From assembly GCF_030684315.1 (NCBI RefSeq), contig NC_081369.1:9896035-9960034 (forward strand): DNA of 64,000 nt. Reading direction: 5' to 3'. The DNA is from Stegostoma tigrinum (taxonomy: Eukaryota). The notes under the pieces are model-generated. The model was given only the letters and a program-made list of their open reading frames with translations. It searched no databases and was not told the origin of the DNA. Of the stretch, positions 1,920 to 63,308 are shown piece after piece. How positions within the stretch are numbered: position 1 is the stretch's first letter; each line of letters opens with the position of its first letter. The position numbers were made by a program, and so were the translations under genes.

Positions 1920-1974
1920 GATAGCTACACACATGAAATAAATTAAAACAAAGCAGGGGCACCCCTGCAACCAT
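1920..1974 (-). CDS. Signal-peptide (leader) exon of a probable IgSF receptor paralog; rest of the gene probably lies left of the window
   Basis: Minus strand reads gaaatc ATG GTT GCA GGG GTG CCC CTG CTT TGT TTT AAT TTA TTT CAT GTG TGT AGC TAT C|gtaagt = MVAGVPLLCFNLFHVCSY, then a phase-1 consensus donor. It is 55 nt, the same length and phase as the leader at 14523-14577. Confidence 0.6.
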
Positions 1975-4900
1975 GATTTCCAGTAACTCTTTGTTGCCTT
2001 CTTAAAACTCAATACGGGCCTAAGAAACTGAAATGAGATTAACACGAACTTTCTCAACCTTGAAAGCAGCACGTTCTTAACAACAGCAAATGCGAATGAA
2101 TCAGTAAACTGGTGACCTTGACTCTAAAACATAACGTATCATCTTCAATCTGTTCAGAATCTTCTGGAGTATTTCTTCAATTCTTGGCTTTGGCTAAGGA
2201 AGTCAGGTGATATTATATTCTAAAATTTGCACTGAATGCAGTTAAACTAAAAATGTATGCATTATTAGATTAATAAATTAAAATTCTTTGGGTGCAAGAT
2301 TGTCAATGACCTAAATCAGTTAAGAAATGCTAGTTTGCCTGTCAATTCTCTAAGAGAGAACGACCCTGTCCTGACCTCATCCCTAATAATCAAAATGTCG
2401 CAGATTCCCTTGCCGTGGCAGGGTTGGATGGAATTATTTACATAGAGCTGTTGTGGAGACCTAAAACTGAAGAGGGTAACGCCCATTGGACTGTGTGGCA
2501 CCAACAGCCTTGCTGAATGGTCAGTATACTGAACACAGCCAGCAGCTCAAATCTTGGTATCCAAAACATGCTTTGGATTTGCAGATGCATTAGTGTTGTA
2601 TTTAACTGCAATCCATAATATTATGGCCCTGCATATCCTTAACAATTATATTGCTATCAATTTAAAAAGAAATGTGTTGCAATGTGCAACACAGTAGTGT
2701 AGGCCAGGAGCATAAACAAGTTACCTAACACAGAGTATCCTCTGGGCAAAACGGCAATGCAGGTTTATGTGTGCATTATACAGTGGGCACGTAAACAGTT
2801 AACTGGTCCCACAATAGATGAATCTGATCGCAGTTCACTAGTCTTTCCAACACTATTTGTAAATGTTCATGGACAAACAACCAAGTAATAGTAAAAGGAG
2901 GCTGCACTAACCTCTTCGTCAATGATCCACCAGCCAACATTCCACAGTAAAGCCTATAGATATTCAAAGTGTAGGGCAATGTGAAGTGGTGCTGATGGAG
3001 AGAGGGGTTTAAGAGTGTGCATGTGGTGGGGCATGGCACTGACTGTGGACGTGAGATGAGGTAGAATCAGCTGAATTTATTGCCGACCACTTCTCCAGCG
3101 CTTCCCCAAGATTTAGGGAGGATTAAAACACTATAGTAGCCTTCACCACCACCCCGCACCGCCTCCCCCGCTTCATGTCCACCCTCCCTTGCATTTGCAG
3201 TCCAAGAAGCAAGCCATCTAAACCAAGCACCCAAACACACTTCGGGCAAACAGCCTTCCCACTGTATCCTGGCCAGACCATTTCACACAATTTATTCATT
3301 CTACCCTCTCTACTTCTGCATATTGTTGGTTCGCAACATCTGCTGAGATTAACATCAGTCAAAATATGCATTAGTTTCTCTAACTTTTCATGTGGTCTCT
3401 CAGTATAATTCGCTGAAATATGCCAACAGCTACCAAGAAATGTTTTGGCATCTTCTCACTAATTAAAGGTTGTAGAAGACATTTCAGTTCTATTTTCTTT
3501 CAACAACGATTCAATAGACTGTCTTTGCCAGTATTATTTTCACCTCCAGCTTCGCTATTATTTTACTATGCTTGGTCTATGGAGATATTTCTGACTATGT
3601 GAATTGTAATACTTGTATATATGTTCTCTTATGTTAATGTGTGCCTGACTGCCGACTTGAGCCGGTGAATCCTGCAAATTCCTATTCAGCCATCGTCTCT
3701 TTGTTGGCTTAACTACATTGGCTTCTGATCTAGCAACGACTTTATTTTAAAATTCTCGTCTCTGATTTTCAAATTCCTTTCATACCGTGTTTTGCTTTAA
3801 TTCTCATCTCTAGTTCAGCTCCAATTTTCAGCATTTGCGGATATACCCTGGGGTGCAAAAGCCCAAAGTTCTGTAATTCAATCCCGAAAAATCTGCCTGT
3901 CTGCTCTTTTAAACCTGCCATTTTATCAAGCACTGGTATTTGATGTTATTGATAACGTTCCCTGTGAAGTGCCTGATGAAACTTAACATACGCGACATAA
4001 TTATTTTACTGTTACATGCGTGAATATGCGACGATTTGTTTTCGCCTCAAATCGTCCTTTTCTTTTTAAGTTCTTATCACTTGTCATTTATTCCATTCTG
4101 ATTAAAAGTTTTGGCCCCAGCGAAATCTATCTTTGGCAGTTTTATATAAGACAATTGTTGGCGTTCAAGTGTGAAATCTTGCAACTTATCTACTAAAATA
4201 GGTTACAAATTCTAGCTCGTTTTTATATTCATTCAGTTATTTATTACAGTCATTTGGAGATCAGAAGTTCGTCATTGCCTAATAGTAAAATGGAAATACT
4301 TGTGGTTTGACGCTGTGTGCATCTCAGCATGTGCTCCTTAACGCCTGGCTCATGTTACCTTGTTTGAAGCTCGGAAGAAGTATAATTTAAGAAATGTAGT
4401 TGTAATTTCACATCTGTCAGCCAAGCATTTCTGCAATCGCTCTTTAAAGTCCACGTTTAGCAATTCTTCAGCGTGCTGATTCGAAAAAGCAATATGCAAA
4501 ACCATTGTCCCGATGTCAACTCAGTCAGTATTGTCATTATGAGTTTGTTGTTCGCTCAATGCCCGCTGCGGCTTCATTCTGGGCCGTTTACCTTACAGGT
4601 GCTGTCAGTGTTGTTTCACATCGCCTTACATTTCCATTTACTCCTCCATTTATAGGGTCAGAAGTCAGGTTCCAAGTTTAATTAAAACAGAATGGAAATC
4701 AGGCCATGTGAATTGCCTACTGACAATCATTTTAGGGAAAAATATTTTATATTCCTGTGAGAACATCCAGCAAAGAATCAGTTCCGTTTTTCTTTCGAGG
4801 CAATCACTGAGCAAATGATTACATCCAGAGAACTAAATTCTTCTTTATTACGTTACATCTTGCCAGAAAACATTTGGAAAAATGACAGTCATATCCAGTT

Positions 4901-5384
4901 TTAATGAGAAATAAAACTAAGACTCAAAAATTTCTCAGTGAAATGAAATGTCGAATATTTTAGATTGCACATTCCAAAGGAATGCTCCATCTGTGGTAGA
5001 AAATAACATAATACAATTCAACAGTTAATTTTCTGCAGCGCGTTTTGCAGCCACTTGAGCTACCAAAGTGCTGTAGAGCTAGCTAGGCACGTTTGATAAG
5101 CCTACATTTGTTATGTTGTCACTGTCATGCTGGAAACATAGTGCTCACGCTGCACATAAAAAAAAGCCACAAGAACGGAACCATTATAGTGAGCAGATAA
5201 CATACTTCAGCGAGGGTAGTTGAAAGATGAGTATTAGCCAGGACACAGGCAATGCGATGAGTGATTAGCTAAACATCTTTCATTCACGTCTTTTTGAATT
5301 TTACAAGAGGACACAGTAATGGTATGTCATAGTAAGTATACCAGTAACTGATTACTATGCAACGCAGAAGATACATAACTCAAC

Positions 5385-6240: not shown

Positions 6241-6289
6241 ATACAATCCGGCCTCACAACGAAACATATGTTTCCGTGGCCGATCCCCC

Positions 6290-6960
6290 GACTTGATGTT
6301 AATAACTGGTTGGGAGAATATGCTGGGCCATAAAGTTGTAGATTGTGTTGCAGTGCAATTCTGCTGCAACTCCTGGAGGCCCAGAATAAGTTGCTGGATC
6401 TGTTTAAAATCTGCATGCTTTGAACAGTGATAGTACCACCCAACAAATGGAGGATATTCTCAATGTGCAGTGGTTACTCATACCAGTACTGTCATGGACA
6501 GATGCATCTGCTGCTAACAGATTAGTAAGGATGAGATCAAGTATTATTGATCCTCCTTTCTTGGTTCCCCCACTATCTGCCACAGCCCGAGGCTAGCAGT
6601 TATGTCTTATTGGACCCAACCAGCTAGATCAGTAGTGCTACTTCAGAGCCACTCTTGGTGGTCAGCGTTGAAATTCACAACCTGGAGTATATTTTGTGCC
6701 CTTCCCACCCTCATTTCTTCTTTCAAGTATTGTTCAATGTGGAGGAGCACTAATTCATTAGTACAGAGAGGATGGCTTGTGATAAACAGCAGGAGGTCCT
6801 TGCCCATGTTTAACCTGAAGTGATTATACTTCATGGGGCCCAGAGTCGAAGTTGAGGGCTCCCAGGTCAATCTCACGCCCCATCCCCGGCTGCATACGAC
6901 AGCGCCACCGACTCTGGTGAGTCTATCCTCCTAAAATATTTTTCAACATAAGCTGTCAAC
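6290..6960 (-). mobile_element. Non-LTR retrotransposon endonuclease-domain fragment (CR1/L2-like), copy 1
   Basis: Minus-strand peptide ...RAQNILQVVNFNADHQEWL resembles the APE-endonuclease GDFN motif region. Confidence 0.6.
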
Positions 6961-7016
6961 ATAAGCTGTTGACAACTTTTGCGTGATAGAGACAGCCAAT
7001 TAATGCCGATAACTTC

Positions 7017-7244
7017 ATAGATAGTAGGAACTGCCGATGCTGGAGAATCTGAGATAACACGGTGTGAAGCTGGATGAACACAGCAGGCCAAGCAGCATCA
7101 GAGGAGGCGGAAAGTTTGATGTTTCAGGTCGAGACCCTTCTTCAGAAAAAGAAGAAGGGTCTCGACCCGAAATGTCAAGCTTTCCTGCTCCTCTGATGCT
7201 GCTTGGCCTGCTGTTCTTATCCAGCTTCACGCAGTGTTATCTCG
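7017..7244. mobile_element. Palindromic mini-element made of two inverted Penelope 3' termini
   Basis: Inverted repeat centred at ~7148 (…gagacccttcttcag aaaaa gaagaagggtctc…). Flanked by gataa[c/t]ttc at 7008-7016 and 7245-7253. Absent from duplication copy 2 (~11450). Confidence 0.85.
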
Positions 7245-7844
7245 GATAATTTCCTGTTCGTTTTTTTAGCGGTATTGGTCAAAGAATAATCATCAGTTCA
7301 GAAAGCGAGAAAAACTTCCTCCTATTCCTTCAAGTGATGAGTGAGATTTTTTTAAAACCATGATGTCCTTGTAGGATCAATATTCTGTACAAAGCAGAAG
7401 TTGTTTTACATTACTCAACATTTAATCTTGAGACCTTTAATAGAGAAAATACTATTCAATTCTAGAAATCAAAACAAAAATCAAATACTTTATTCTGAAC
7501 TCGATAATGCTAGGAAACACAACTAATGTGAATCTGCTAACATTTGTAAGCATGATTCCCTAACTCCCAGCAACTACCATTTCATTTCTGCACGTGACCT
7601 TCGCACTGCCCTCTCGGTTCTTGGTGTGTCGCTGAGTTCCAGTAATGTTCATTGATAGCTACAGGAGCAGTACCTTTTTGTCCCAGTCGGGACTTTAAAT
7701 TCTGACAGACTAACCACTACACGCGGCAGTGAAATGTCACTTGATCAAGTATAGCGTGCGAGATTCAAGATTCCAGATCTGTTATGGGCTCATTGAAACA
7801 AAGAACTCTTACTCCTGCGTGAAGAACAACCAAAGAACAAAGTA

Positions 7845-9040
7845 CCTGGACTTTCAGAAAGCCTTTGGTAAAATCCCATATAGGAGATTGGTAAGCAAAA
7901 TTAGGGCACATGGTATTGGGAGCAAAATACTGACTTGGATTGAAAATTGGTTGGCTGACAGAAAGCAAGGAGTACTGATAAATGGGTCCCTTTCAGAATG
8001 GCAGGCAATGACCAGTGGGGTACCACAAGGTTCAGTGTTGGGACTGCAGCTGTTTACAATATACATTATACAGATGATATAGATGAAGGCATTAAAAGTA
8101 ATATTAGCAAATTTGCTGATGACAAAAAGTTGGGTGGCAGTGTGAAATGTGAGGAGGATGTTATGAGAATACAGGGTGACTTGGACAGGTGAGGTGAGTG
8201 GACGGATGCATGGCAGATGCAGTTTAATGTGGATAAATGTGTGGTTATCCACGTTGGTGGCAACAACAGGAAGGCAGATTACTATCTCAATGGAATCAAG
8301 TTGGGTAAAAGGGAAGTACAACGAGATCTAGGTGTTCTTGTACATCACTCAATGAAAGCAATCATGCAGGTACAGCAGGCAGTGAGGAAAGCTAATGGCA
8401 TGCTGGCCTTCATAACGAGAGGAATTGAGTATAGAATCAAAGAGGTCCTTCTGCAAATGTACAGGGCCCTGGTGTGACAGCACCTGGAGTATTGTGTGCA
8501 GTTTTGGTCTTCCAATTTGAGGAATGACATTGTTGCTATTGAGGGAGTGCAGCGTAGATTCACGGGGTTAATTCCCGGAGTGGCAGGACTATCATATGTT
8601 GAAAGATTGGAGCGACTAGGCTTGAGTTCAGAAGGATGAGAGGGAATCTGATTGAGACTTAAAAGATTATTAAGGGATTGGACACTCTGGAGGCCGGAAG
8701 CATGCTTCCACTGATGAGTGAGTCCAGAACCAGAGGACACAGTTTGAGAATAAGGGGTAGACCATTTAGTACAGAGTTGAGGAAGAATTTCTTCACCCAG
8801 AGAGTGGTGGATATATGGAATGCTCTGCCCCAGAAGACAGTGGAGGCCAAGTCTCTATATACTTTCAAGAAAAAGATGGATAGGGCTCTTACAGATCATG
8901 GAATCAAGGGTTATGGGGATAAGGCAGGAGCAGAATACTGATTGTGGATGTCAGCCCTGATCATAATGAATGGTGGTGCTGGCTCGAAGGGCCAAATGGC
9001 CTACTCCAGCACCTATTGTCTATTGTCTATTGTCTATTGT
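7845..9040 (+). mobile_element. 5'-truncated CR1 LINE (RT C-terminal half, inactivated)
   Basis: YLDFQKAF, GVPQGSVLG, SKFADD, MQFNVDKC, RTRGHSL motifs with frameshifts and stops. (ctattgt)n 3' tail at 9012-9040. Absent from duplication copy 2. Confidence 0.92.
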
Positions 9041-10519
9041 CAAATCTCTAATCGTTAATGCCAATGTGGCTCATTAAAATAAAAAGACAACAGATACTGC
9101 AAGATCATGAATATACTTAAAATATTTAACATTTAATGTAATGTCTCCAAATTCGGGATTTGCATTCCACCAGTTAAAATTTACCTTTGTATGAGATGTT
9201 ATTGACACCTGACCTGATATTAAGCCCCTTGTTAGTCACAACCACGTGTGGGAAATTGTCGTGCGGCTTTGTTCTTCACGTTGGAAATTTCTGCAGTAAT
9301 TGAGGGAAGCACCACAAATAATTGCGAAATACATTTGCGCCTGTGTGTGGCCATTCATTTCTGCTCAAGTGGTATTCACCTTTAACTTCTTTCGAAGTTC
9401 TTTATTGTAAGTCGGCACATGGATAATAGTGTCATAAAAAATGTCAAAACCTCGCCTATTACTGGGATATCATGTGAGGAAACAGTTGAAGTAACCAATC
9501 ATTCTTCAGCACCCAAATTGCCAGCCGAAATTCGTTGCTTTAGAACAAGCCGAAGCCATAAGGAAGTTCACATGTCTAAGTCAATATTAAAGACCTCACA
9601 GTTATGGGTAGTATGTATCATGAACCAATTATTCGTATAACAAAACTCTGTTCTGAATTAGTTAAAATTTGAGGTCACCTTGTGTTTCTGAACATCTGTC
9701 ACCCAAAGGAGTTCTTACGTTACAATGATAATCTCCCCACCTCCGAGCCAACAGAGTCGTCACACACACGGTATTAATGAATCATAACGTCTCTAAACCG
9801 GTTGATTAGAAAATAGCAAGACCTGACACCTTTCCTACCTCACATTAACATGAACAACGAGGATTCGCCCAAGAGTAGTAAGGGATGGCCAACAATCCTG
9901 CCTTGCTTCTAATGTTCACAATACTAGTTTTAGAAAGCAAACGGACAGAATGATCCACGTTTTAACGGTTGGCAAGAGAAAGAGAGATGTACTGAAAGTA
10001 AAGCTTAAGGGTATGTTTACAATATTTTAAAGATGGGAGGCAAGTGGTTCATACAACATAAGGCAATTAAGTTATATTAAACTAGCCTCAGCTTTGAGAC
10101 GTATGTTCAACACTGAGGGATGCCGAGGCCTTCGAGCGGATGTTAGAAGATATTTATTAGAATAATATTCGGGTTGAGAAACTTCAGTGACGTGGAGGAA
10201 GTGGTGTTATTCTTGATCGAGAACTTCAGCGACATTCAAGATTGGAAAACGTTTCGTGGCATAAACTGGGATAAAGGCTTGACTGGCATAAACTAATTAG
10301 GATAAAACATATTCTGTCAGATAATCCAGTAACCCGAGGACAGGTTGTTAACAGACCCAGAGGCTTTTGAATTACACAGTCGCAATGAGCCTGTTCCGCT
10401 CTTCCAATATTAATGTTGTGGGTATTTGTGAAGCCTCCTCCTTGTGGAGTGAATTGCGTAATTGTCCACCACAATTTATGCCTGGATGTGGCAGGATTGC
10501 GGAGCTTCAATCTGATTTG

Positions 10520-11400
10520 GCGGTTTTGGCATTACCTATCTCTGTCTATCATTTGCTGCTCCCACTGTATGACATGCAAGTATTCCTGTTTGATAGCTTC
10601 ACCAGGTTGGTGCCTCAATTTTAGGTATGCCTTTTGTTCCTCCTCGTGCACTCTCCCGCACTGTCCATTCAACAGCGTCAATCCTTAGCTTAATGTTAAT
10701 AACTGAGAAGGAGAATATGGCAGACCATCGAGTTAGATTGCGCACTTGCACATTTCAGTTGTTATTGACGCCCTAGACCGCCTCATGGATACCCAGACTT
10801 ACATTTCTAGATCTGTTCTATTTAGCACTGTGAAAGATCCACATCACAAGTTGGAGGGTATTATCAATGTGTAGGTGGGACGACGTTTCCACAAGGAGTG
10901 CGCAGTGGTCACTCGTACCAATGCATTCGTGGACCGGTGCATCTGCTACTAGCAGATTGGTAAGGGTGGGGTCAAGTATTATTTCCCCATACCCCTCCCC
11001 CGCTTTATGGTTCTTCAACTATCTGCCACAGTTCTAGACTAGAAGTTATGACCTTTCGGATCCGGCCAGCACGAACAGTAATGCTACTGCAGAGCCACTC
11101 TTGGTGGTCAGCATTGAAATCAATCACCTGGTGCACATTTTGAGCCCTTGCCACTCTCAGTTCTTCTTTCAAGCATTGTGAAACATGGAGGAGCACTGAT
11201 TCATTAGTACAGAGAGGATGGCATGTGATAAACAGCAGGAGGTCCTTGCCCACGTTTAACCAGATGTGATGATACTTCATGGGGCGCAGAGTCGAAGCTG
11301 AGATCTCCCAGGTCAAGTCCACCCCGACTGCATACGACAGCACCGCCAACTCTGCTGAGTTTATCCTGCCAAAATATTTTTCAATTGTAGCCGCAATTGT
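10520..11400 (-). mobile_element. Non-LTR retrotransposon endonuclease-domain fragment, copy 2
   Basis: ARAQNVHQVIDFNADHQEWL..TVRAGR and 'IGTSDHCALLVET' (APE SDH motif). Confidence 0.65.
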
Positions 11401-13690
11401 CATCAGCTGTTGACAACCTGCGCACGATAGAGACTTACAATTAACACATAATTTCCCAGTGTTTTTTTTAGCAGTACTGGCTAAGTTCAGAAAGCAAAAA
11501 CAACCTTCCTCTTATTCCTTCAAGTGACGGGTGAGATTTTTAAAACATGATTTTCTTAAATAATCAATATTTTGTACAAAGCAGATGCTGTTTAACATTA
11601 CTCAACATTGAATCTTGAGGCCTTTAATAACGAAAATGCTATTCAACTCCAGAAAACAAAAAAAAGTCGAATACTTTATTCTGAACACAATAATTCTAGG
11701 AAACACAACTGATGCGAATGTACTAATATTTGTAGGCACGATCCCTTAACTCTCAGTAGCTACCATTTCAATTCTCCACTTGACCTTCACACTGACCTCT
11801 CTGTGCTCGGTATATCGCTGTGTTCCAGTAACGTTCGGTGATATCTGGACGAAGAGCGCATTGTTGTCCGATTAAGGACATTACATTCTTACGGACTAAG
11901 CGCTGAGTTTATCCGCTCTTGAAAGCAATCTTGCGTTTTGTTTCTCATATTACAACAGTGTACCTGTTCAAGGGCACGCATTCTGTTTCTTTTTTTATTT
12001 TCTCTTCGCGCATTGCCTTCTATTTGGCTATGTACGAGGAAATCTCCAAATGTCCATCACTTCTGTGTTCCCCCTTTCAAAAGCCTCCTTATGCGCGATT
12101 TTTAACTCTCTGTCTAAACTTGTTACGCTTTTGAACTTTACGAATTTCTAATGAAAGATTGCTGTTCTTGGAAAGTTACTCGGATTCTTCTTCCACCTGT
12201 GCTGTCTGATCTGCTGAGCGTTTGCACTTTCTGGTACATTGCACGCAGCAGGGAAATGGCACTTGATCACATATCAAGTGCAAGATGTCAGATTCCAGAT
12301 CTGTTATGACTTCATTAAATGGAGAAAAACCTGGGAGTGTTACACACAGAAGTCTTATTTCTGTGTGACGATGCATAACGAAATCTCCAGTCATTAACCC
12401 CAATGTGGCTCATAAAAGAGTCAACAGATACTGAAAGATCATGAATGTATTTCAAATATTTAATTTTTAATCTCCATTTTCGGGTTTTCATTCCACCAAT
12501 TTAAATTTACCTTTGTATGAAATCTTACTGACACCTGACCCTGCTATTGCGCTCTTTACTACTTAGTGAGAATTACCCGTTGTAAATCGTCGTGCGGTTG
12601 TGTTCTTCAAACACCACAAATAATTACGACACATATTTGCGCCTGTGTGTGACGATTTATTTCTGCTCCAGTTTTATCTATATTTAATTTCTTTGGAAGT
12701 CTGCCCAAGGAAAACGGTGTCATACTTAGATGTCACATACTCGTAAATTATTAGGATATCATGAGGGGAAGCAATTAAAGTGACCAAACATTCTTCAACA
12801 ACCAAATTGTCAACCGAAATTCACTGCTTTAGATCAAGCCTAGGCGAAGAGGAGTTTCACATGCCTGTGGCAATAGTAAAGATCTCACAGTCATGATTAG
12901 AGAGTATAATGAACGATTTATTAGTATAATTTGCAGAACTCTGACCTGAGTCAGTTAAAATGTGAGGTCACCTTATGTTTCCGTGCCGGACCTGTCACCA
13001 GAGGGGTTCTTGTGCTGCAGTGATAGTTTGCCCACTTCTGAACCAACGGAGCGAGGTGAAACAGGCTGCAGTCATGAATCATAACTTCTCTAAACGGGTT
13101 GATTGGAAAATAACAAAACCTTCCGCCTTTCCTGCTCCACATTAAGATGAACAACGATAATTCGCTCATAGATAATTAGGAATGGACAACAATAACGGCT
13201 TGCTTCTAATGTTCATAGGACCAGTTATTTTTTTTAAAAAAGCAAACAGAATGATTCACGTTTTAATGTTAGACAAGAGAGTAGAGATGTACTTGGAAGT
13301 GAAGGTCTAGGGTGCGTTTGCAATATTTTGAAGGTGGGAGACAAGTGGCTCATAAAACATAAGGCAAGTAAGTTATGTTAAAACTAGTCCCACCTTTGAG
13401 ATGCATGTTCAACTCTGAGGGATGTCAAGGCCTTAAATTGGACGTTAGAAGCCAATTGTGGGAATGTTATTGCGCATGAGAAACTTCAGTGGTGTGGAGG
13501 AAATGGCGTTATTCTCGATCGAGATTGGCGGCATTCAAGATTGCGAAACGTTTTCGTGGCTTAAGCTAGCAGCAAGGTTTAGAAGACATAAAACAATTGG
13601 GATAAAACGTATTCTGTCAGATAACCCAGTAAGTGGAGAACAGATTATTAAAAGGCCCAGAGGTTTTTGAATTTCTCAGTCGCCATGAGT
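10905..13690 (+). repeat. Segmental tandem duplication, copy 2
   Basis: Colinear with 6475-10390 minus the copy-1 insertions. Carries its own extra segment at ~11915-12240. Confidence 0.9.
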
Positions 13691-14522
13691 CCCAGCCTAA
13701 ACGTTCCTGCTGAGGAACAGATGTTCGTGCAGATCCGCTAATGGCGTTACCATTAGTATTCGTCTAGAAATTCAAATAATTGAATTCAACAAGCTGCCAC
13801 TTGCAACAAGCTGAAGGTCTACAAAACTTGGTCTTACTTTCAGTAAAGTTCCCTTGCTCCGTGAACGCTGTACAAGCTTGATTCTTCTCGCCGTTCCATC
13901 TTCAGGTGTCACCAAACGCAATGTTGTGATTATTTGTTGTGTTTTAAGTGGACTAATAGTTCGAAAAGAAAACAATTTGGAAATAGGCATAACTGTCCTC
14001 ATCAGCTCTGAAACAGAAAAAAAAGGAAGATGAATGTAATTATCAATAAAATGATTCCTTCTGGAAAGTTGAGTTATCGGAGGATATTAAAGATAATGGT
14101 GGCATGTATCTCAGAGGTCCCAGGATGAATAGTTTCTTACGTGAAGAGAAGCCTTTTCGATAAATGAGCTGGAGTGCTGCGGTCTGAAACGATAATTTCA
14201 GCATTGAGCTCACAATAAAAGGTAAATTTTGACAGAAGAGGTTTTTCGAACGCCCTGTCCCTGAGGTGATTGAAAGTACATATAAACACTGTCGATCTTC
14301 AAATGGAAACGTTTCAGCAGGAAGTTTGGAGGGTCCCTCCGATCGAACAAACACCCACTAAGAAGTAGAACTATATCCAATACGCCGCAACAGTCATGTG
14401 ATCCCTTATGTCATAGTCTCACGTTTAATTTATTCATCCATGAAACTCATTTGAAGCAAGCCACCCAAGCCACTTAGAATTCTGCCCTCGTTCACAGCAA
14501 GGAACGCACATATTTTTGCAAG

Positions 14523-14577
14523 ATGTCATTGAGAGCAGTGGTTCTGTTCATGGCTCTTCTGGTAATGACATGGCCAG
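14523..14577 (+). CDS. IgSF VJ-C1 receptor gene, exon 1 (signal peptide MSLRAVVLFMALLVMTWP)
   Basis: ATG plus a hydrophobic 18-codon stretch ending CAG|gtact. Phase 1, which splices in frame to the V exon. Confidence 0.75.
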
Positions 14578-14772
14578 GTACTCTTAAATATTACGAAGTG
14601 CCCTCTTGGTGTAATTTAGACTGTGTTTCATATTCACAGCTACTGTGCGTTGCAATGTTAGATCCTGTGCTTCCCTAATCCGATGCGAGTAATTTTTCTC
14701 AAACGTTTCTTCTATTTTACTCCTCCTTTGTTTTATTTACTTTGTAGTCTGCAGCTATTATTACAATTCTTG

Positions 14773-14835
14773 GACGGAACCCCGCCCACGGCCGACGGAA
14801 CCCCGCCCACGGCCGACGGAACCCCGCCCACGGCC
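14773..14835 (+). repeat. Three perfect 21-bp tandem repeats (gacggaaccccgcccacggcc; DGTPPTA) at the 5' end of the Penelope insert
   Basis: Directly visible in the sequence. Confidence 0.95.
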
Positions 14836-17437
14836 GACGACATCATCGCTCCGCCCACAACCTCCACAGCCTGCAACCCCAGAGAAGACAGCCACACTGA
14901 GCCCTGCCGAATCTTCACCATCCCCCCAGACCTCCCACTGACTGAGGACGAACGGTCAGTCCTTAGTAAGGGGCTCACCTTTGTCCCCCTACAACCACAC
15001 ATCAACGAATACCAGTCACGGTCGGACATAGAGCAGTTTTTCCGCCGTCTTCGCCTGCATGCCTACTTCTTCAACCGGGAACCCAACCCTCCTTCCACTG
15101 ACCCCTTCACCCGCTTCCAACACAAGTCCTCCTCCTGGACACCACCTCCAGGCCTCCTACCCTCCCTCGACCTCTTCATCTCCAACTGCCGTCGAGACAT
15201 CAACCGCCTCAACCTCTCCACCCCTCTCACCCACTCCAACCTCTCCCCCGCAGAACGGGCAGCCCTCCGCTCCCTCCGCTCCAACCCCAACCTCACCATC
15301 AAACCCGCAGACAAGGGTGGCGCAGTGGTAGTATGGCGTACTGACCTCTACATCGCCGAGGCCAGACGCCAACTCTCCGACACCACCTCCTACCGCCTCC
15401 TCGATCATGACCCCACACCCGAGCACCAAACCATCATCTCCAACACCATTCATGACCTCATCACCTCAGGGGACCTCCCACCCACAGCCTCCAACCTCAT
15501 TGTTCCCCAACCCCGCACGGCCCGTTTCTATCTCCTTCCCAAAATCCACAAACCTGCCTGCCCCGGTCGACCCATCGTCTCAGCCTGCTCCTGCCCCACC
15601 GAACTCATCTCCACCTATCTGGACTCCATTTTCTCCCCTTTGGTCCAGGAACTCCCCACCTATGTCCGTGACACCACCCACGCCCTCCACCTCCTCCAGG
15701 ACTTCCAATTCCCTGGCCCCCAACACCTCATATTCACCATGGACGTCCAGTCCCTGTACACCTGCATTCCGCATGGAGATGGCCTCAAGGCCCTCCACTT
15801 CTTCCTGTCCCGCAGGCCCGACCAGGCCCCCTCCACCGACACTCTCATCCGCCTAGCGGAACTCGTCCTCACACTCAACAACTTCTCTTTTGACTACTCC
15901 CACTTCCTACAGACTAAGTGGGTGGCCATGGGCACCCGCATGGGCCCCAGCTATGCCTGCCTCTTTGTAGGTTACGTGGAACAGTCCATCTTCCGCACCT
16001 ACACAGGCCCCAAACCCCACCTCTTCCTCCGGTACATTGATGACTGTATCGGCGCCGCCTCTTGCTCCCCAGAGGAGCTCGAACAGTTCATCCACTTCAC
16101 CAACACCTTCCACCCCAACCTTCAGTTCACCTGGGCCATCTCCAGCACATCCCTCACCTTCCTGGACCTCTCAGTCTCCATCTCAGGCAACCAGCTTGTA
16201 ACTGATGTCCATTTCAAGCCCACCGACTCCCACAGCTACCTAGAATACACCTCCTCCCACCCACCCTCCTGCAAAAATTCCATCCCTTATTCCCAATTCC
16301 TCCGCCTCCGCCGCATCTGCTCCCACGATAAGACATTCCACTCCCGCACATCCCAGATGTCCAAGTTCTTTAAGGACCGCAACTTTCCCCCCACGGTGAT
16401 TGAGAACCCCCTTGACCGCGTCTCCCGCATCTCCCGCGACACATCCCTCACACCCCGCCCCCGCCACAACCGCCCCAAGAGGATCCCCCTCGTTCTCACA
16501 CACCACCCTACCAACCTCCGGATACAACGCATTATCCTCCGACACTTCCGCCATTTACAATCCGACCCCACCACCCAAGACATTTTTCCATCCCCTCCCC
16601 TGTCTGCTTTCCGGAGAGACCACTCTCTCCGTGACTCCCTTGTTCGCTCCACACTGCCCTCCAACCCCACCATACCCGGCACCTTCCCCTGCAACCGCAG
16701 GAAATGCTACACTTGTCCCCACACCTCCTCCCTCACCCCCATCCCAGGCCCCAAGATGGCATTCCACATTAAGCAGAGGTTCACCTGCACATCTGCCAAT
16801 GTGGTATACTGCATCCACTGTACCCGGTGCGGCTTCCTCTACATTGGGGAAACCAAGCGGAGGCTTGGGGACCGCTTTGCAGAACACCTCCGCTCAGTTC
16901 GGAACAAACAACTGCACCTCCCAGTCGCAAACCATTTCCACTCCCCCTCCCATTCTCTTGATGACATGTCCATCATGGGCCTCCTGCACTGCCACAATGA
17001 TACCACCCGAAGGTTGCAGGAACAGCAACTCATATTCCGCCTGGGAACCCTGCAGCCATATGGTATCAATGTGGACTTCACCAGTTTCAAAATCTCCCCT
17101 TCCCCCACTGCATCCCTAAACCAGCCCAGTTCATCCCCTCCCCCCACTGCACCACACAACCAGCCCAGCTCTTCCCCCCCCACCCACTGCATCCCAAAAC
17201 CAGTCCAACCTGTCTCTGCCTCCCTAACCGGTTCTTCCTCTCACCCATCCCTTCCTCCCACCCCAAGCCGCACCCCCAGCATCCCACCTCCTTGACCTGT
17301 CCGTCTTCCCTGGACTGACCTATCCCCTCCCTACCTCCCCACCTACACCCTCTCCACCTATCTTCTTTACTCTCCATCTTCGGTCCGCCTCCCCCTCTCT
17401 CCCTATTTATTCCAGTTCCCTCCCCCCATCCCCCTCT

Positions 17438-17465
17438 CTGATGAAAGGTCTAGGCCCGAAACGTC
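17438..17465 (+). ncRNA. Minimal hammerhead-ribozyme motif in the Penelope 3' terminus
   Basis: CTGATGA-aaggtc ta ggccc-GAAAC-GTC: conserved CUGANGA/GAAA core, stem II hairpin, palindromic minimal stem III and GUC cleavage triplet. Confidence 0.75.
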
Positions 17466-17597
17466 AGCTTTTGTGCTCCTGAGATGCTGCTTGGCCTGCT
17501 GTGTTCATCCAGCCTCACATTTTATTATCTTGGAATCTCCAGCATCTGCAGTTCCCATTATCTCTATTACAATTCTTACTTGTTTTATTTTTAATAG

Positions 17598-17903
17598 TCA
17601 CGGAAGTAACTTCGAGCAAAGTAGAACAGTTTCCCAAACTCTTGAAGTCGGACAAAGGTGACAACGTTTCCATGTTCTGCACATTTCCCATATCTGAAAC
17701 GGTTCCTGAAGTATTTTGGTGGAGACGCAATGAGGAATCTTTTCTGGAACCCGACAACAGAAAGCGATTTCATGTCCAGAAAGGAAGTGGAGCACTTCAT
17801 GTCATCAATGTCACTATTGCAGACTCCGGAATGTATTATTGCAAAATAAAACATCAGCAAACTCTCATTGGAGCTGGCAGTGGCACAATGCTGACAGTGT
17901 GCG
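17598..17903 (+). CDS. IgSF VJ-C1 receptor gene, exon 2: germline-joined V-set (VJ-type) domain
   Basis: ttttaatag acceptor and g|gtaagt donor, phase 1/1. VEQFPK..NVSMFCTF..VFWWR..LHVINVTIADSGMYYC..GAGSGTMLTV shows the canonical C, W, DxGxYYC and a J-like GxGT. Confidence 0.93.
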
Positions 17904-18375: not shown

Positions 18376-18394
18376 TTCGCTTCACGGGCAGCCT

Positions 18395-20481: not shown

Positions 20482-20778
20482 CTCCCCCAACCAAGCTGAA
20501 AATCATTCCCGTTGAAGGAATTTCAGGGAATTACCCGAAATTCGAATGCAAGATGACTGCCTTTTATCCGGAGGATTTAGGAATCTCCTGGCTAAGAGAT
20601 GGTGTCAAAATTCAGGCTGGAATAGAAACTGTGAAAAACAAGACCGTGGATGGGCTTTATGAGGTTACTAGTTCGTTGAAAGAAACACATCCTGTGCAGA
20701 GCGGTGTAGTTTATACCTGCCTGGTACCTCATGAATGTCTTACGGCGCCCGCCGGTGTCAGCTATACCTTTAATCGAG
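20482..20778 (+). CDS. IgSF VJ-C1 receptor gene, exon 3: C1-set domain
   Basis: ttctgttccag acceptor and g|gtaaga donor. APPTKLKII..FECKMTAFYPEDLGISWLRDG..DGLYEVTSSL..YTCLVPHECL shows the C1 hallmarks CxxxxFYP, W and YxCxVxH. Confidence 0.93.
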
Positions 20779-26077: not shown

Positions 26078-26182
26078 GTAGAGACTTCAATTATCTGCTG
26101 ATCTCTAGATGGGCGATTGGCACGCTAGCAATTTTACTATTGATAATAATTTTGACAAAACTCGAGCTCAAGACATCAGCTG
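26078..26182 (+). CDS. IgSF VJ-C1 receptor gene, exon 4: transmembrane exon
   Basis: cttgtag acceptor and g|gtaaga donor, phase 1/1. Reads GRDFNYLLISRWAIGTLAILLLIIILTKLELKTSA. Confidence 0.85.
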
Positions 26183-27626: not shown

Positions 27627-27670
27627 GTGTTAGGAGACGTTCTGTGAAAGTGGATGAAGCTCAACAGCCG
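27627..27670 (+). CDS. IgSF VJ-C1 receptor gene, exon 5: cytoplasmic (GVRRRSVKVDEAQQP)
   Basis: Strong acceptor ttttctttctttactttag and ccg|gtaagg donor. Open in frame after the TM exon. Confidence 0.7.
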
Positions 27671-36823: not shown

Positions 36824-36862
36824 ACAGAACAAAGTGGTGGAGACTACAAGCTGCCTTATTGA
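36824..36862 (+). CDS. Tentative terminal exon of the VJ-C1 receptor (TEQSGGDYKLPY*)
   Basis: atttctttcacag acceptor; phase 0 matches exon 5 and would give a 281-aa protein. No independent support. Confidence 0.35.
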   Translation, partial: TEQSGGDYKLPY

Positions 36863-38389
36863 AGTCTGCTGATTCTGAAAGAACATTAAAACAGACATAG
36901 CATGAAAGATATGAAGTATATTTATATGCTTTGCTGACAAGGAAAGAGAAAAAACTGAGAATCTAGAAAAAATAGTGTAGTATTGTAAATTATTTTTGGA
37001 TGAAAGCTGAGGATATCCAAACATTTACTTAAAATGGACATCCATCATTGTTTCATTTACTGCGCCACCAATGGAATGCTAATCTGATACATAACAAGAA
37101 ATCCATGTGCATGATGGAAAGTGAGAGTGAAATGTTAATTCCCAAGTTGAAAGTTCAGTGTAATATCTGTACACAGTAGATTCGCAAACACAGCTCTCCA
37201 ATTTACTGTGTAAGACTCTCTAAGTTTTTTGTTGCATATTCCAGACTAGTGTCTTCTCTCTTACATGACTTACACGAATATCATTCCAGCATATTTATCA
37301 CCAGTCAATGCGAGAAATATGAACATATCAAAGATAATGTCACATCCTGTAATGCTATAGTTGCACAAACCTCTACCTCTTACGGTGAAACATAGTTGCC
37401 AAGAAGAATTTTACCCTCTGTGAATGACTTTTCGCCTTGTCCATCTTGCGTAATGCTGGTATAAAAACACATGACATCTTACCCTGCTGCATAAGATATC
37501 AATGACGTCACATTGTTTAGTCTTCAGGGTGGGGTTATCACGACGTTTTAGGATGAAGTATTACGTTAATATAATTAATGTGAGCTTGTTTAGGTTTGCT
37601 CTTTGGGTTGTATCTGTGGCTCGATGCTTTTGGTTTAAAGATTAGGTTAATAGAATTAATGCATGTTTTTTTAGCATTGCAGTTAGCATTGCGTTTGGGG
37701 CACTTAGTTGAGCAATGTTATGATAATAGTTGATGACAGTACTGGATATACCAGATACCAGAGTGACACTTGGACTGATGAACCAAAAGTTGTTTTTTTT
37801 ATTTGGAGTTTCATAATTGTGGTGGTCAGCCACTGAACATACGAGATGTCCAAAGATATTATTTCAATTTAAAAAATGCAAGTTTATTACAGAAAACGAT
37901 CAAATCTAATATTTGTAAGGTAACTTAGATTGTTATTTACACAGACAAAAATGCTTAAAACCTGTTTCCAGCAATATTCATTACAGACACTTAATGCCAG
38001 GAAAATATTCTAATTTTAATGTCTATATTTCTTACTTAACTGAGAAAGTCTATTGCATTTCTTTCCGGTGACATTCAGCAGGTATGATTCTTCTCATTAC
38101 TGCCACTGCATTAGATGTTAAGATGCTGGCTGCATCTAACTAAATTTTAAGAAATGCCCTGGCTACTTCAAATCCAAAACAATTTAAGGCTTTATTTGGG
38201 CTGGCACGAACTGAGTTAAATAACTGGTTTTGCAGTTTGGACCGGCTCAAGCTGACTTAAGTGACTGGTTTTGTTCTGCAAGGAGACTGTCCTTCTTTCG
38301 AACTCAACCTGCTAAAAGACCATCAGTAATTGAGTTGTAAAACTCTTAAAGACAAAATACTTTTGATTCATATCAATTATAGTCTCTGC

Positions 38390-42059: not shown

Positions 42060-42290
42060 AAAACCGAAAGAACTGCAGATGCTGGAAACCAAGAGCAAAA
42101 AAAAAATGCTGGAAAAGTTCAACAGGTCTGGCAACATCTGTGAAGAAAATATAACGTTAACGTTCCGGTCCAGTGACCCTTCCTCAGAACTTTTCTGAGG
42201 AAGGGTTTCCGGACCCGAAACGTTAACTCTAATCTTTTTCTTCACAGATGTTGCCAGACCTGCTCAGCTTTTCCAGCAACTTTAGTTTTG
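42060..42290. mobile_element. Palindromic double-hammerhead Penelope-terminus element
   Basis: Inverted repeat centred at ~42190: …gacccttcctcagaa ctt ttctgaggaagggtttccggacccgaaacgttaac…. Confidence 0.8.
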
Positions 42291-42291
42291 T

Positions 42292-42510
42292 GCCTTCTTC
42301 GCCAGGTGTCCTGTGCAGAGCATCAAGGTTTTACCCAGAAGATCGCAATGTGCCTCACTAGCGTAAGGACAAGGCTAACACTGGAACTGGGGTTCTATTA
42401 ATCAGCGCACTTTGGAGACAAGTTGAAAGTCAAAACTGTTTTCCAGCGTTAATCATTCCGCAGCGGAGTGACACGCAGCTGCGATTTATCGCATGCTCCT
42501 CTTCAGATTT
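42292..42510 (+). pseudogene. Degenerate C1-set exon relic
   Basis: PSSPGVLCRASRFYPEDRNVPH* then, after a frame change, VTRSCDLSHAPLQ. These match CxASxFYP and xSCxVSHxxL. Confidence 0.55.
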
Positions 42511-43041
42511 CGAGTCAACTTTTTTAAAATTGGCTTTTAAAAATATTTTTAAACATGTTTATCTGTGAAAGGTTAGGCATAGATTATGACCTTCATCATT
42601 CATTGTTTTCCAATAAACCAGCGAAGGCGCCTTAACAGACAAACCACAATGGACAACTTGAAAGCAATGACTTATAAGTAATGAATGAGGCAAGAGAAAC
42701 ATTCATTTCCGCCAGTTACATCTGCAGGTCAACACTTGCTCACAAGGGAATGGCAACCTCTTCTGGTCAGCGTGCTTTAGCATTCAGCGAAGACATTTGA
42801 ATGATGTCCACGATTTGGAGAAATAAAGAGGCCTCACCTTATTTCACTAACAGCCAACGGAAATTTTCGGATTTATTGATACTAACTTGCCAACTGCCTT
42901 GATATCCGACTAATGTTTTTTAACTGAAAAAAAATCATATTATCCCTTTCACATTTTCTGGATTTCCCGAAGCAGTTGCAGTCACCTTCTTATGTGCAGT
43001 CACAGCTGTGATGTAGGAGACGCCACAGCCAATTCGCGCAG

Positions 43042-43045: not shown

Positions 43046-43082
<37 letters not shown>

Positions 43083-55949: not shown

Positions 55950-56130
55950 CGTTATCGTGAATTATGCATAATAGGTAAATTGTTTTCCTGTTGGCAATCA
56001 TTTTCAAATGCAGCTCTATTGCTCGTTGTCATAGCTTTATATTTTGTGTCCAACAGTAAATCACATAAATGAGCAGTGTAGGCTAGTTCATTCTGGACAG
56101 TGTTTAACTCAATTGTTCCTTCCATGATCA
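55950..56130 (-). pseudogene. Probable decayed cytoplasmic exon of the - strand VJ-C1 pseudogene
   Basis: tttggcag acceptor, then ..IMEGTIELNTVQNELAYTAHL, an ITIM-like LAYTAx remnant. Position follows the TM relic. Confidence 0.35.
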
Positions 56131-58459: not shown

Positions 58460-58559
58460 GCATTCATTTTTTTGTCTCCTAAGTTCTGTCCCAATGTGGA
58501 TCATAGGCACCAAAACTGCCGCCAGCAGCTAACCAGAAGTAACGTAAGTAAACAATATT
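58460..58559 (-). pseudogene. Decayed TM exon of the - strand VJ-C1 pseudogene
   Basis: ttttacccag acceptor, then ILFTYVTSG*LLAAVLVPMIHIGTELRRQKNE: hydrophobic stretch, basic stop-transfer residues and an internal stop. Confidence 0.55.
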
Positions 58560-59689: not shown

Positions 59690-59986
59690 TGCTTGAGAAA
59701 TAGTATGTGTGGCAACGGCTGGAGTCCTGACTCTAAGTGCCGAGCAGGTATAATTGGCTTCGTTTGAGCAACTTGTCGCACAGATACAGAGCTGGAATCT
59801 TGGTAGAGTCCCTTGGCGTTCCGCACTTGCAGGTTGTGCATTCCTTCTACGGTTTTGACGCAATTTTAAAGCAAGTTGGCGTAATATTCTCCGGATAAAA
59901 TCCGGCTGCCTCACACGCAAGCGTCAAAGACACGGGCGAATTTCCTTCAGGTGGCCTAGAGAAGGCACTCAGCGGTGTTGGCTTCA
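59690..59986 (-). pseudogene. C1-set exon of the VJ-C1 pseudogene (two frameshifts)
   Basis: ttttgcag|VKPTPLS..SLTLACEAAGFYPENIT / ..RNAKGLYQDSSSV / ..NYTCSAL..TPAVATHT. The conserved W codon reads TGC. Confidence 0.85.
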
Positions 59987-60129
59987 CTGCAAAATTGAAA
60001 CTAAACTGAGTCAGGTCATCACGTGCAGTCATGAGACAATACGAGATTAGACATGATGGTGCAGTTTGTGACCATAGTGTCACTCAAAGCAGTGACCATC
60101 AGTCCTTCTGGTTTCAGGCGAGTGATGGG

Positions 60130-60660: not shown

Positions 60661-62989
60661 AATATTTCATTCAGGTGTTTCATGGGAACAAACACCTGTT
60701 CAACATTACCTGAGCTATCCAAGGCCTTGGCTACTTGGCAGACAGAGTGAAAGAATTGTTTCAGCGCATAAACAGGCCACTCAGACCACTGTGTTTTAGT
60801 CGGCTCTCCGAATGAATATTTGCGTTGTGTTCTGTTTATGTCTTGCACGATTCGTCTTTGAAGCTCACAAGTCTTTTGAAAATTGAATTTTCCACTACGA
60901 AAAAAAGAGGCTGTTCTGTAGAACAGGATCTCTGCCAGCAATATATGTGAGGATAAGCAGTCATCCCTGAAGAATTCTGCTACCTAAATTCCTCTCACCC
61001 TAAAAACACAGCTGACCACTTTCTATCACCCCCAGCCTTTTACAGCAGTCATGCATTTTTTTCCATTTCACGTGAAATTTAGAAACTTTGTTGAATATTT
61101 CATGGTTTTTATGTCTTCATTGATAGATCAAGGAAAATTGAATCCAGTGCAGCTGCTAAGACAGGAATCTTTGATTTCAGGACCACACGTCCTTGAACCT
61201 CCTAAGGTTCAGTCTATTTATAGTTCTACCCTTTCCCACTGAATATAATTTTTAAAAAAATTTACTCCAGTCGTCTCACCTCCTGAATCTTGCTAACTTC
61301 AGGAATGTTATTTGTGTCCTGTATAGGGGAGGTTCTGAAAAGAAATAAGTTTTGTCAGACTGGAAAATCGAACAAGTGCCTCAATCATTCAACGAAGGAA
61401 GCAAAGAAACAGAAAACACTAAACTCCAGGACAGTCAACTTCTGTAATCGAAAAAAAGCAGGCGGTTTTGTTCAAGAAGCCGTAGGGAATTTGGAAAAAT
61501 CGAAATATTAACAACAAAAGTCAGCATGGTTTTGTGAAAGGAAATAATGTTTAATTGACATTTTTGAAGTGGTATGAGGAAATAAATGACGTTGGAGTTT
61601 TGGAGTGCCTCCATCATAACTAATCTCACCCTTCTCACCTCTGGAGAAAGTAGTCTAACTCATCCAATCTACCTTCACAATTGACGTGAAACTATTTTCA
61701 TGGCTTCCACAGTACTCTTCTCCAATGCCATTACATACCTTCTTAAATACAGGGCTCAGTACCTCATGCAAGGCTCGGCATTTATATGGCTGTCCATGCT
61801 GTTCCTGCCAAAAAGTGCATGGCAAAGTTACTGGATATTGAATTTCATGTCCACTTGTCTGATCAGCCCGTCTTCTTATGTTTATTCTATTTATGGCTTA
61901 CAGTATGCGCTTTAAAGTTCACAATGCTTTCAAACTTCGAACTATCCGCTACCGAAAAGACCTGCCCTGTAGAACAGGATCCATGTCATTAATATATGTT
62001 AGGGTGAGCAGTGATCCCTGAAGAATTCTGCTATGTAAATTTCTCCCAGCTCCCACAACCCATTGATCACTTTTTTCCACTTCCTATCACATCCAAAATT
62101 TGAATCCTCGTTGCTACAGACCATTTTATTCCAATATCTGAAAAGTACTCCACTCTTTCGTTGTGTATGATTATGTCAAATGCCTTTTGGAGGTCCATTA
62201 TTACCACGTCAGCAACAGCTGTTTGTAGATCAAGTAGCTTTTTTCCTCAGCACTTAATGTTAACTGTTGCCAAATGCTCCAAAATACTCGTTTTGCTTAA
62301 CTTTGCTTTAGGAAACCCATGATCACTTTCTTTAATGACACCATTTTTTCCAAATGACCATTCGTTTTATACCCAGTTGTTGCTTCGAGAATTTTCCACA
62401 CGAGGGAAGCTTAACTAACTGTCCAGCAGTCGCTTACATGTTTCAACAATGGTATGACACTTGGTATCTTTTTGGCCTTCGATAATGTCACTTAGTCTAA
62501 GGGAGATTGATGCAATGACACTGCCTCCGCATCGTCATTCTTACTTCCCTCATCAATATTGGATATCTCATCATTAAGGGAGCCGCAGCCTATCCAGTAC
62601 GCCATTGTTTCTCACCTTTATACCATCGTTGTATTGAGATGTCGTCTTCATTCACTATGGCCTTGAATTCATCTTCAAACGTTTAGGTAACAGAGTCTCC
62701 ACTGGAATTTATTCATTGAGCACCATGAGGTAATATCGTTGTTTGGGTCAAATAAGCAGTGAAATCCCAGTCCTGAGTTGATGAAACATAAGAAGAGGAT
62801 GCAGTACGTCACATGCTCGGAATCTAATTCAAACATTTGCCACCAGAGTTCAAATACATGCTTTAGAACGCAGGCCACAATATTCTATACCTATTATTAG
62901 GCACCAAAATACCATTTCTATCATTGCAAGTTACTGTTGATGTTCAATATGTTTATGCCAATTTGGCTTTTTTTTTCTTTCATACTTAC

Positions 62990-63308
62990 CAGAAACAATT
63001 AGCTGTGATCTGCTTCAATCTTCACTAAATATCCCTTGACACTTTAGTGTGCTCTAATAGATTCTAGAATCTTGGAAAGTTGTGTTCAGAAATTTGAATT
63101 TACTCAATCATTCCTATTTCTCCTAAACCATTTTCAAGCCTCACTGCCGTCTGCTAGGCATTCAGAGTCTTCCTGTTTCTACCCGTGCACTCTTATGCAA
63201 GAAGGGTTCTGCAAGCTGGAGAATGTGCAAAACAATCCTCCACTTTTATCACAATGTACAGTCATTTGCTTGGGCGTCTGAATTATTCCGAATGAAATGT
63301 GCCTGCAG
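62990..63308 (-). pseudogene. Germline-joined VJ exon of the - strand pseudogene
   Basis: ttctaacag acceptor and g|gtaagt donor. GIIQTPKQMTV..GLFCTFSS..RVHG*KQ..FKFLNTTFQDSRIY*STL..D*SRSQLIVS is a decayed FCTF / WW / DSGIYYC / GSGSQLIV pattern homologous to exon 17598-17903. Confidence 0.8.

What the first reader, a model, noticed from the sequence alone, without database searches (positions are those of the whole stretch)
1920..63308. Birth-and-death cluster of VJ-C1 receptor paralogs in mixed orientation
Seen: a divergent 55-nt leader exon (1920-1974, -), the intact + gene, an orphan C1 relic (42292-42510, +) and a convergent pseudogene with V, C1, TM and cytoplasmic relics in the correct order (63308 to 55950, -). 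Inference: a rapidly evolving multigene receptor cluster like the KIR/LILR/NITR/CHIR complexes, extending beyond both window edges.
Basis: partly seen in the sequence, partly recalled or inferred. Interest (0 to 1): 0.75.

Follow-up and report, generated by a model that had tools for sequence, protein, structure and literature searches.

The report
Shark paired immune-receptor gene cluster
This shark DNA holds one open antibody-like receptor gene whose inhibitory tail exon is broken and whose membrane segment carries an arginine, so it likely switched from an 'off' to an 'on' receptor, beside dead copies of two older relatives from a family shared by sharks, rays and chimaeras.

Summary
The cluster is real, but smaller and older than claimed. 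A + strand gene (leader 14523, single-exon VJ 17598, C1 20482, TM 26078, first tail exon 27627) is open over 807 nt. It is not fully intact: its terminal ITIM exon (36824-36966) is frameshifted and stopped, and its TM has an Arg. The V and C1 relics of the convergent pseudogene and the orphan C1 are real, but they group (weak support) with other, old subfamilies rather than being recent copies. The pseudogene's TM relic is only suggestive, its tail relic is unsupported, and the 1920-1974 leader is unproven. Close relatives were found only in cartilaginous fishes, up to 10 models per chromosome. They are SIRP-like paired receptors: neutral TM with ITIM tail, or Arg TM with short tail (11 of 14 Arg forms lack a distal ITIM, against 9 of 33 others), and Arg sits at four different columns. 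The V domain is 12 residues shorter than SIRP-alpha's and its predicted fold best matches shark VNAR. Best reading: an inhibitory receptor converted to an activating one, as known for KIR. Ten literature searches found no description; key papers were unreadable.

The parts
1920..1974 (-). Candidate 55-nt leader exon of a divergent paralog; unproven
   Evidence: ATG..GTAAGT, open, hydrophobic; rank 2 of 70, 8 of 100 shuffles as good; no tblastn hit from relatives' leaders
6285..13696 (+). Old tandem duplication of non-coding DNA upstream of the leader (unit 1 about 6285-10396, unit 2 about 10682-13696; 74-81% identical); unit 1 has no leader
   Evidence: self-blastn; nhmmer
14523..14577 (+). 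Leader exon of the + gene (55 nt, phase 1, weak GTACTC donor)
   Evidence: 13 of 18 aa identical to horn shark P0004 leader; E 3e-10
14772..17564 (+). Penelope-like retroelement with a long open frame and 13-nt target duplication, ending 33 nt before the V exon
   Evidence: ORF 14662-17295; GIY-YIG E 0.002-0.004, below Pfam's cut-off; flanks printed; class name from recalled motifs
17598..17903 (+). Single-exon VJ domain (Cys, Trp, Cys, GxGTxLTV), compact, no RSS
   Evidence: 78 of 100 aa to Chiloscyllium plagiosum XP_043563363; AF2 pLDDT 92.6
20482..20778 (+). C1-set exon
   Evidence: Pfam C1-set 4.6e-11; 74 of 98 aa to P0001
26078..26182 (+). Transmembrane exon with Arg near the outer end, where the closest inhibitory relatives have Gly
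   Evidence: 21 of 34 aa to P0004; TM alignment
27627..27670 (+). First cytoplasmic exon (44 nt); read-through gives a stop after 2 codons
   Evidence: top hit for P0182 cyt1 but only level with controls, 35 against 35; placed by phase and splice sites
36824..36966 (+). Dead terminal ITIM exon: acceptor, phase and final stop at homologous places; frameshift inside the first ITIM and a second stop
   Evidence: DNA runs X4 and X5 each match 36471-37560 with 1 other letter and 0 gaps
42287..42521 (+). Orphan C1 relic, 5' end abutting a SINE-like repeat; closest to horn shark P0145
   Evidence: tree SH-aLRT 93 on a very long branch
58463..58559 (-). Possible TM relic of the convergent pseudogene; suggestive only
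   Evidence: 14 of 100 shuffles
59692..59986 (-). C1 relic of the convergent pseudogene, P0192/P0180 subfamily
62990..63308 (-). VJ relic of the convergent pseudogene with AG and GTAAGT at the homologous boundaries
55950..56092 (-).
   Evidence: not in the top 3 places for any of 5 tail queries; weak local alignments

Best explanation
The window is part of a cartilaginous-fish cluster of germline-joined VJ-C1 receptors, and its open gene has an Arg in the membrane segment and a broken ITIM exon, so it likely is a former inhibitory receptor converted into an activating one that would signal through an ITAM adaptor. SHOWN: exon structure, open 807-nt frame, TM Arg, lesions in the terminal exon, an intact ITIM tail in the orthologous bamboo-shark model, two relic paralogs, and the family-wide link between TM Arg and short tails. 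INFERRED: the protein is made; its V domain binds an unknown, probably variable ligand through the BC, C' and FG loops; the outer-leaflet Arg pairs with an FcR-gamma/CD3-zeta-type adaptor; inhibitory siblings recruit SHP-1/2; pathogen pressure on the inhibitory form drives repeated switches and later gene death, as argued for KIR, Ly49 and SIRP. Odds: cluster of one family 0.95; paired-receptor family 0.85; this gene a working activating receptor about 0.65.
For: Orthologue P0001 (V 99/96, C1 99) keeps LTYATL and TLYAGI, while the window's terminal exon is 18 of 43 aa identical to it with two lesions, against V 78 of 100 and C1 74 of 98 with none; at the dead exon's lesion rate about 11 lesions would be expected in the five open exons, so the tail was lost while the ectodomain was kept. 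Of 47 TM-bearing relatives, 14 have an intramembrane Arg; 11 of 14 lack a distal ITIM against 9 of 33 others (Fisher p 0.003, rows not independent); Arg occurs at four columns (10, 2, 1, 1 sequences). Catshark P0003 (Arg, 26-aa tail) and P0006 (Cys, 3 ITIM-like motifs) are 92% (V) and 96% (C1) identical. Several within-species pairs have V 41-51% but C1 85-92% identity, a sign of domain swapping or conversion. Two probably-RNA runs of a related organism match the V exon from its first base (one also to its last) and one matches C1 up to its 3' end. Passages of PMC3533184 define paired receptors by these features, link TM Arg to FcR-gamma (LILRA) and describe KIR2DS2's ITIM relic.
Against: No transcript of this gene itself was seen. 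Its TM and tail exons were not among the listed RNA pieces. A Penelope element sits 33 nt before the V acceptor and the leader donor is weak. No second cytoplasmic exon was found (17-29 of 60 shuffles as good). A second copy in the DNA runs carries the bamboo-shark residue at three C1 sites where the window differs, which could mean relaxed selection. Three of 14 Arg forms keep an ITIM-like motif and 9 of 33 neutral forms lack one; these are automatic gene models and include isoforms. The window's Arg column is shared with 10 sequences of other TM types, so it may be old or converted rather than a new mutation. P0001's model has no TM exon, so its Arg state is unknown. The dead exon lies 9 kb downstream and could belong to another lost paralog.
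Confidence: 0.65

Rival explanations
1. The + gene is itself dying, or is a non-signalling decoy: the tail decayed first, the retroelement disturbs splicing, and the Arg is a neutral change.
For: Two neighbours are dead; Penelope insertion beside the V acceptor; derived C1 residues against a second copy; no own transcript seen.
Against: 807 nt and all ten splice/start signals are unbroken while the terminal exon is heavily decayed; canonical Cys/Trp kept; Arg plus short tail is a recurring family state.
Confidence: 0.22
2. These are B7-family ligands (B7-H6/NCR3LG1-like), as several automatic names say, not receptors.
For: RefSeq names; B7-H6 chains match P0006 at E 3e-10, level with SIRP-alpha 5e-10; B7-like clusters lead the Atlas structure list at TM about 0.5.
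Against: The family profile prefers SIRP-alpha (4e-27) to B7-H6 (1.4e-18); J motif, tandem ITIMs and Arg-TM forms are receptor traits; Atlas features rank SIRP-alpha clusters first, 0.96-0.97.
Confidence: 0.06
3. The genes are germline-joined or orphan antigen-receptor chains (Ig light chain, TCR, IgNAR, UrIg type).
For: VJ-C1 layout; V model's best fold matches are VNARs; UrIg2 is the top summed profile hit.
Against: Single TM receptor with ITIM or Arg, one C1 only; 22-28% identity to VNAR; NCAM2 and titin I-set domains tie within about 1 Z; per domain pair SIRP-alpha scores 54.8 bits against UrIg2 50.6; no RSS near either V.
Confidence: 0.05

Closest known systems
SIRP family (SIRP-alpha/beta/gamma)
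   Same: Non-rearranging VJ-type V followed by C1-set; ITIM inhibitory and charged-TM activating members in a cluster; best continuous V+C1 match among non-antibody structures (2wng, 4e-27).
   Different: One C1 instead of two (the bamboo-shark orthologue model has two); V 12 residues shorter between Trp and Cys (41 against 53); outer-leaflet Arg rather than the DAP12-type Lys (Lys recalled; DAP12 link); orthology untested.
KIR / LILR / CHIR / NITR paired-receptor clusters
   Same: Birth and death, pseudogenes, activating forms derived from inhibitory ones with ITIM relics (KIR2DS2).
   Different: Those use C2-type domains (KIR, LILR, CHIR) or V plus I-type (NITR) (recalled); this family has VJ plus C1. 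An analogy, not membership.
UrIg and UrIg2 (shark non-rearranging VJ-C1 genes)
   Same: Single-exon VJ, split leader, C1 domains, cartilaginous fish.
   Different: Three to eleven C domains, disulfide-linked antibody-like dimers, liver/gill expression (PMC12227049); no ITIM/Arg pairing in the parts read.
NKp30 (NCR3)
   Same: Germline VJ domain; activating through a TM Arg (recalled).
   Different: No C1 domain and no ITIM siblings of this type (recalled); low in the fold list (rank 48).
IgNAR variable domain (VNAR)
   Same: Compact V lacking most of C'/C''; top 11 Foldseek hits, VIA Z 14.8, rmsd 2.1, 96 aligned.
   Different: VNAR rearranges and is secreted antibody; 22-28% identity; I-set domains score as well, so convergence is likely.

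Membership tests
Paired Ig-superfamily receptors (class) | Near-identical ectodomains with ITIM-tail and charged-TM/short-tail members | tested here: met
   P0003 against P0006; 11 of 14 against 9 of 33
Paired Ig-superfamily receptors (class) | Genes clustered | tested here: met
   Three loci in the window; 4-10 models on one contig in five species; tandem position in those species not seen directly
Paired Ig-superfamily receptors (class) | Adaptor binding, SHP recruitment, leukocyte expression | not testable with these tools
   needs experiments
SIRP | Single-exon VJ-type V followed by C1-set | tested here: met
SIRP | V-C1-C1 ectodomain | tested here: not met
   One C1 in the window gene and nearly all relatives; two in P0001 by a recent duplication
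SIRP | Full-length V with C'/C''/DE region | tested here: not met
   Trp-Cys spacing 39-44 in 43 scored V domains (of 47 rows) against 53 in SIRP-alpha
SIRP | Tandem cytoplasmic tyrosine motifs in inhibitory members | tested here: met
   1-4 ITIM-like motifs in 24 of 33 neutral-TM relatives
SIRP | Orthology by tree and synteny with the tetrapod SIRP locus | not testable with these tools
   No genome held, no framework gene recognised in the window, homologue searches at E<=1e-20 and 1e-8 returned only chondrichthyan-named proteins and one unnamed one
SIRP | CD47 binding | not testable with these tools
   none
UrIg/UrIg2 | Three or more C1 domains, antibody-like dimer | tested here: not met
   one C1 then TM; definition
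NKp30 | Single VJ ectodomain without C1 | tested here: not met
   C1 exon present; definition recalled
Rearranging Ig/TCR/IgNAR | Split V and J with RSS | tested here: not met
   J motif inside the V exon; only 2 RSS-like strings in the window (49681+, 35882-), neither near a V
B7-H6 / B7 ligands | Closer to B7 V-C than to SIRP | tested here: inconclusive
   single-sequence search ties; profile and Atlas features favour SIRP; Atlas structure list favours B7-like at low TM
KIR/LILR/CHIR/NITR | C2- or I-type membrane-proximal domains | tested here: not met
   only C1-set matches the second domain; definitions recalled

The most novel reading that the evidence does not exclude
An undescribed paired-receptor complex, older than the shark-chimaera split, built from a non-rearranging VNAR-like compact VJ domain on one C1 domain: either the ancestral form of the SIRPs or a surviving sister of the VJ-C1 gene that RAG split, which has re-invented activating receptors from inhibitory ones several times, one switch being caught here with its ITIM exon still visible.
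Probability: 0.25. Interest if true: 0.8.

Novelty: new variant of a known kind. Interest (0 to 1): 0.5.

Why it matters
Which variable innate receptors sharks use for NK-like and myeloid recognition is poorly charted, and non-rearranging VJ-C1 genes are sought as relatives of the antigen-receptor precursor (PMC10751288, PMC12227049). This family sits in public annotation under scattered automatic names (SIRP-alpha-like, NCR3LG1-like, tapasin-like, Ig-lambda-like). Read as one paired-receptor complex present in chimaeras, sharks and rays, it would extend the 'activating from inhibitory' rule known from KIR and Ly49 to the oldest jawed-vertebrate lineage, and gives a directly testable Arg-and-tail pair. 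The logic itself is familiar, which caps the surprise.

Tried and rejected
Whole genome: none held, so flanks and synteny are open. RNA: no RNA holder listed on record; contigs cannot show level or ends, and splice joints were swamped by repeats. dN/dS: not possible, only proteins of relatives were available; a residue count over 11 close V domains shows peaks in the BC loop, after the C strand and in the FG loop, descriptive only. C1-like hit at 62197-62301(+) (E 0.017-0.3; 47 against control 66): rejected as chance on the opposite strand of a LINE relic. Alternative TM relic at 59357-59322: no better than chance. Second and third tail exons of the + gene: not found. The first V tree had the V relic half out of frame; its placement there was discarded and redone (support only 68). 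The C1 tree is the quick version; the careful run did not finish. Rfam: nothing. Pfam on the retroelement ORF: no RT hit. Most top rows of the 1.8-billion search were long multi-Ig proteins; 16 of 150 rows were picked by eye as relatives. Earlier findings of this scan: 4 look-ups, all empty. Literature: searches gave no paper on this family; word searches in the bamboo-shark and whale-shark genome papers and one elephant-shark supplement file found no SIRP mention; the UrIg paper, Ohta 2019 and one recalled review were not held.
Full report
OBSERVATION. The window is repeat-rich shark DNA; the closest named relative of its gene is from Chiloscyllium plagiosum (78% in V), so the source is probably a carpet shark (inference). 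The + gene has five open exons: leader 14523-14577, VJ 17598-17903, C1 20482-20778, TM 26078-26182 and cyt1 27627-27670, with AG/GT ends and matching phases. V carries Cys, Trp, Cys and GxGTxLTV in one exon, with no RSS nearby. A Penelope-like element with a 13-nt target duplication fills the leader-V intron and ends 33 nt before the exon. The convergent pseudogene's V (63308-62990) and C1 (59986-59692) relics beat reversed and shuffled controls (76 against 55; 173 against 50) and match the gene's own exons at DNA level over the exon span. The orphan C1 at 42287-42521 passes with one subfamily (85 against 66; E 1.5e-4). The pseudogene's TM relic is suggestive (14 of 100 shuffles) and its tail relic unsupported. 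The 1920-1974 exon has the right length, phase and donor and some likeness to elephant-shark-type leaders, but 8 of 100 shuffled windows do as well for the best of three groups tried and two similar exons occur elsewhere in the window. I give it about 0.4.

Relatives end in an exon that begins TKQ, carries LTYAxL and a second Tyr motif, and ends near KSRI. A relic of it lies at 36824-36966: acceptor, phase 0 and final stop are at the homologous places, but a small frameshift falls in the first ITIM, so the spliced frame would stop after 12 residues, and a second stop follows. Regional shuffles reached its score 0 of 60 and 1 of 60 times; in the whole-window scan it was borderline. Two DNA runs match this stretch with 1 other letter and no gap, so the lesions are in the raw data, though these runs may be the assembly's source. 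Read-through of cyt1 stops after two codons. A purine-flanked AG later in the dead exon could in principle add an atypical YLYALL string (seen); I judge it an unlikely acceptor. The TM has Arg where the closest inhibitory relatives have Gly.

THE FAMILY. Three homologue searches and one library-wide search gave close relatives named only from cartilaginous fishes: 10 gene models on one 99.65-Mb horn shark contig, 7 on a sevengill contig, 6 records on an elephant shark scaffold, 4 each in catshark and devil ray. The two profile searches scored only the top 8000 word-sharing candidates, so bony-vertebrate members are not excluded. Trees put the + gene with C. plagiosum P0001 (V 99/96, C1 99) inside a shark-plus-ray clade; the 60-kb relic falls near sevengill P0192 (C1 81, V 68) and the orphan with horn shark P0145 (93), both on long branches. 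So the window holds three old subfamilies, two dead. Recent duplication shows elsewhere: P0001 has a doubled C1, upstream DNA is tandemly duplicated, and the DNA runs hold a second C1 contig at equal depth with its own letters, with intron bins at about twice a single contig's depth (a hint only, allele or paralog).

PAIRED SIGNALLING. Of 51 relatives examined, 47 had a TM segment. Fourteen have an intramembrane Arg, at four columns; 11 of 14 lack a distal ITIM, against 9 of 33 without Arg (p 0.003, but rows include isoforms and kin). Catshark P0003 and P0006 differ by 4-8% in the ectodomain yet are opposite types. Some paralogs share C1 (85-92%) under unrelated V domains (41-51%). These are the defining traits of paired receptors in PMC3533184 (passages), which also gives the KIR2DS2 ITIM relic as precedent.

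MECHANISM. Shown: anatomy, lesions, family pattern. Inferred: the gene lost its inhibitory exon while the ectodomain stayed under selection (18 of 43 identities and two lesions in the dead exon against 74-78% and none in V and C1), and its Arg recruits an FcR-gamma/CD3-zeta-type adaptor. Supporting expression evidence is indirect: two probably-RNA runs of a related organism match V (17 other letters in 308; 6 in 170) with exon-bounded ends, and one matches C1 to its 3' end. Against: no own transcript, the retroelement beside the acceptor, three derived C1 residues against the second copy, and the Arg column being shared with older activating TM types, which leaves the direction and date of the change open.

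COMPARISON. The family profile's best continuous V+C1 match outside antibodies is SIRP-alpha (4e-27; SIRP-gamma 5e-22; B7-H6 1e-18), and Atlas features of P0006 rank SIRP-alpha clusters first. But there is one C1, not two, and V is 12 residues shorter than SIRP-alpha's. The AF2 model of V (pLDDT 92.6) is closest to VNARs, with I-set domains tied within about 1 Z, so compactness may be convergent. UrIg and UrIg2 differ in domain number and role (PMC12227049: abstract and parts 1-3 of 8 read). PMC10751288 (passages) mentions VJ-C1 genes in tetrapods and UrIg only. PMC3716694 (passages) notes the proposed SIRP-antigen receptor link. It works like SIRP/KIR; SIRP membership is unproven.

NOVELTY. 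The proteins are in RefSeq under automatic names. Ten searches found no description of the family, but the library lacks most subscription papers, including Ohta 2019 and the UrIg paper, whose text or supplements may list these genes as VJC1 or SIRP-like. Verdict: a real cluster, a new variant of a known kind, interest 0.5.

Noticed in passing
window 14683-17295 (+): The Penelope-like element keeps one open frame of about 840 codons, and an ATG in the host intron at 14683 is in frame with it; a close, broken relative lies at 50590-53064 (79%).
   Followed up: partly
window 6285-13696: Tandem duplication of about 4 kb of non-coding DNA upstream of the leader, 74-81% identical, perhaps the promoter region of a lost paralog.
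   Followed up: partly
window 2015-2040: An ISRE-like string (GAAACTGAAA, motif recalled) lies about 50 nt upstream of the candidate leader at 1974 on the - strand.
   Followed up: no
window 41833-42291: Two SINE-like copies in inverted orientation sit directly against the 5' end of the orphan C1 relic; a similar fold-back pair is at 7047-7247.
   Followed up: no
P0001 (XP_043563363): The bamboo-shark orthologue model is V-C1-C1, SIRP-like by a recent exon duplication, and lacks an annotated TM exon and true leader.
   Followed up: partly
P0145, P0164, P0004, P0170 (horn shark): RefSeq accessions run XP_067906041-52, placing the orphan C1's closest relative next in number to the + gene's clade, as in the window; accession order is only a hint of gene order.
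   Followed up: no
P0163, P0198: Two relatives have both a TM Arg and an ITIM tail, possible dual-function or intermediate forms like KIR2DL4.
   Followed up: no
window 20675-20743 in runs X4, X5: A second C1 copy at equal depth carries four other letters that are shared with the related organism's run X1; three change the residue to the bamboo-shark state.
   Followed up: partly
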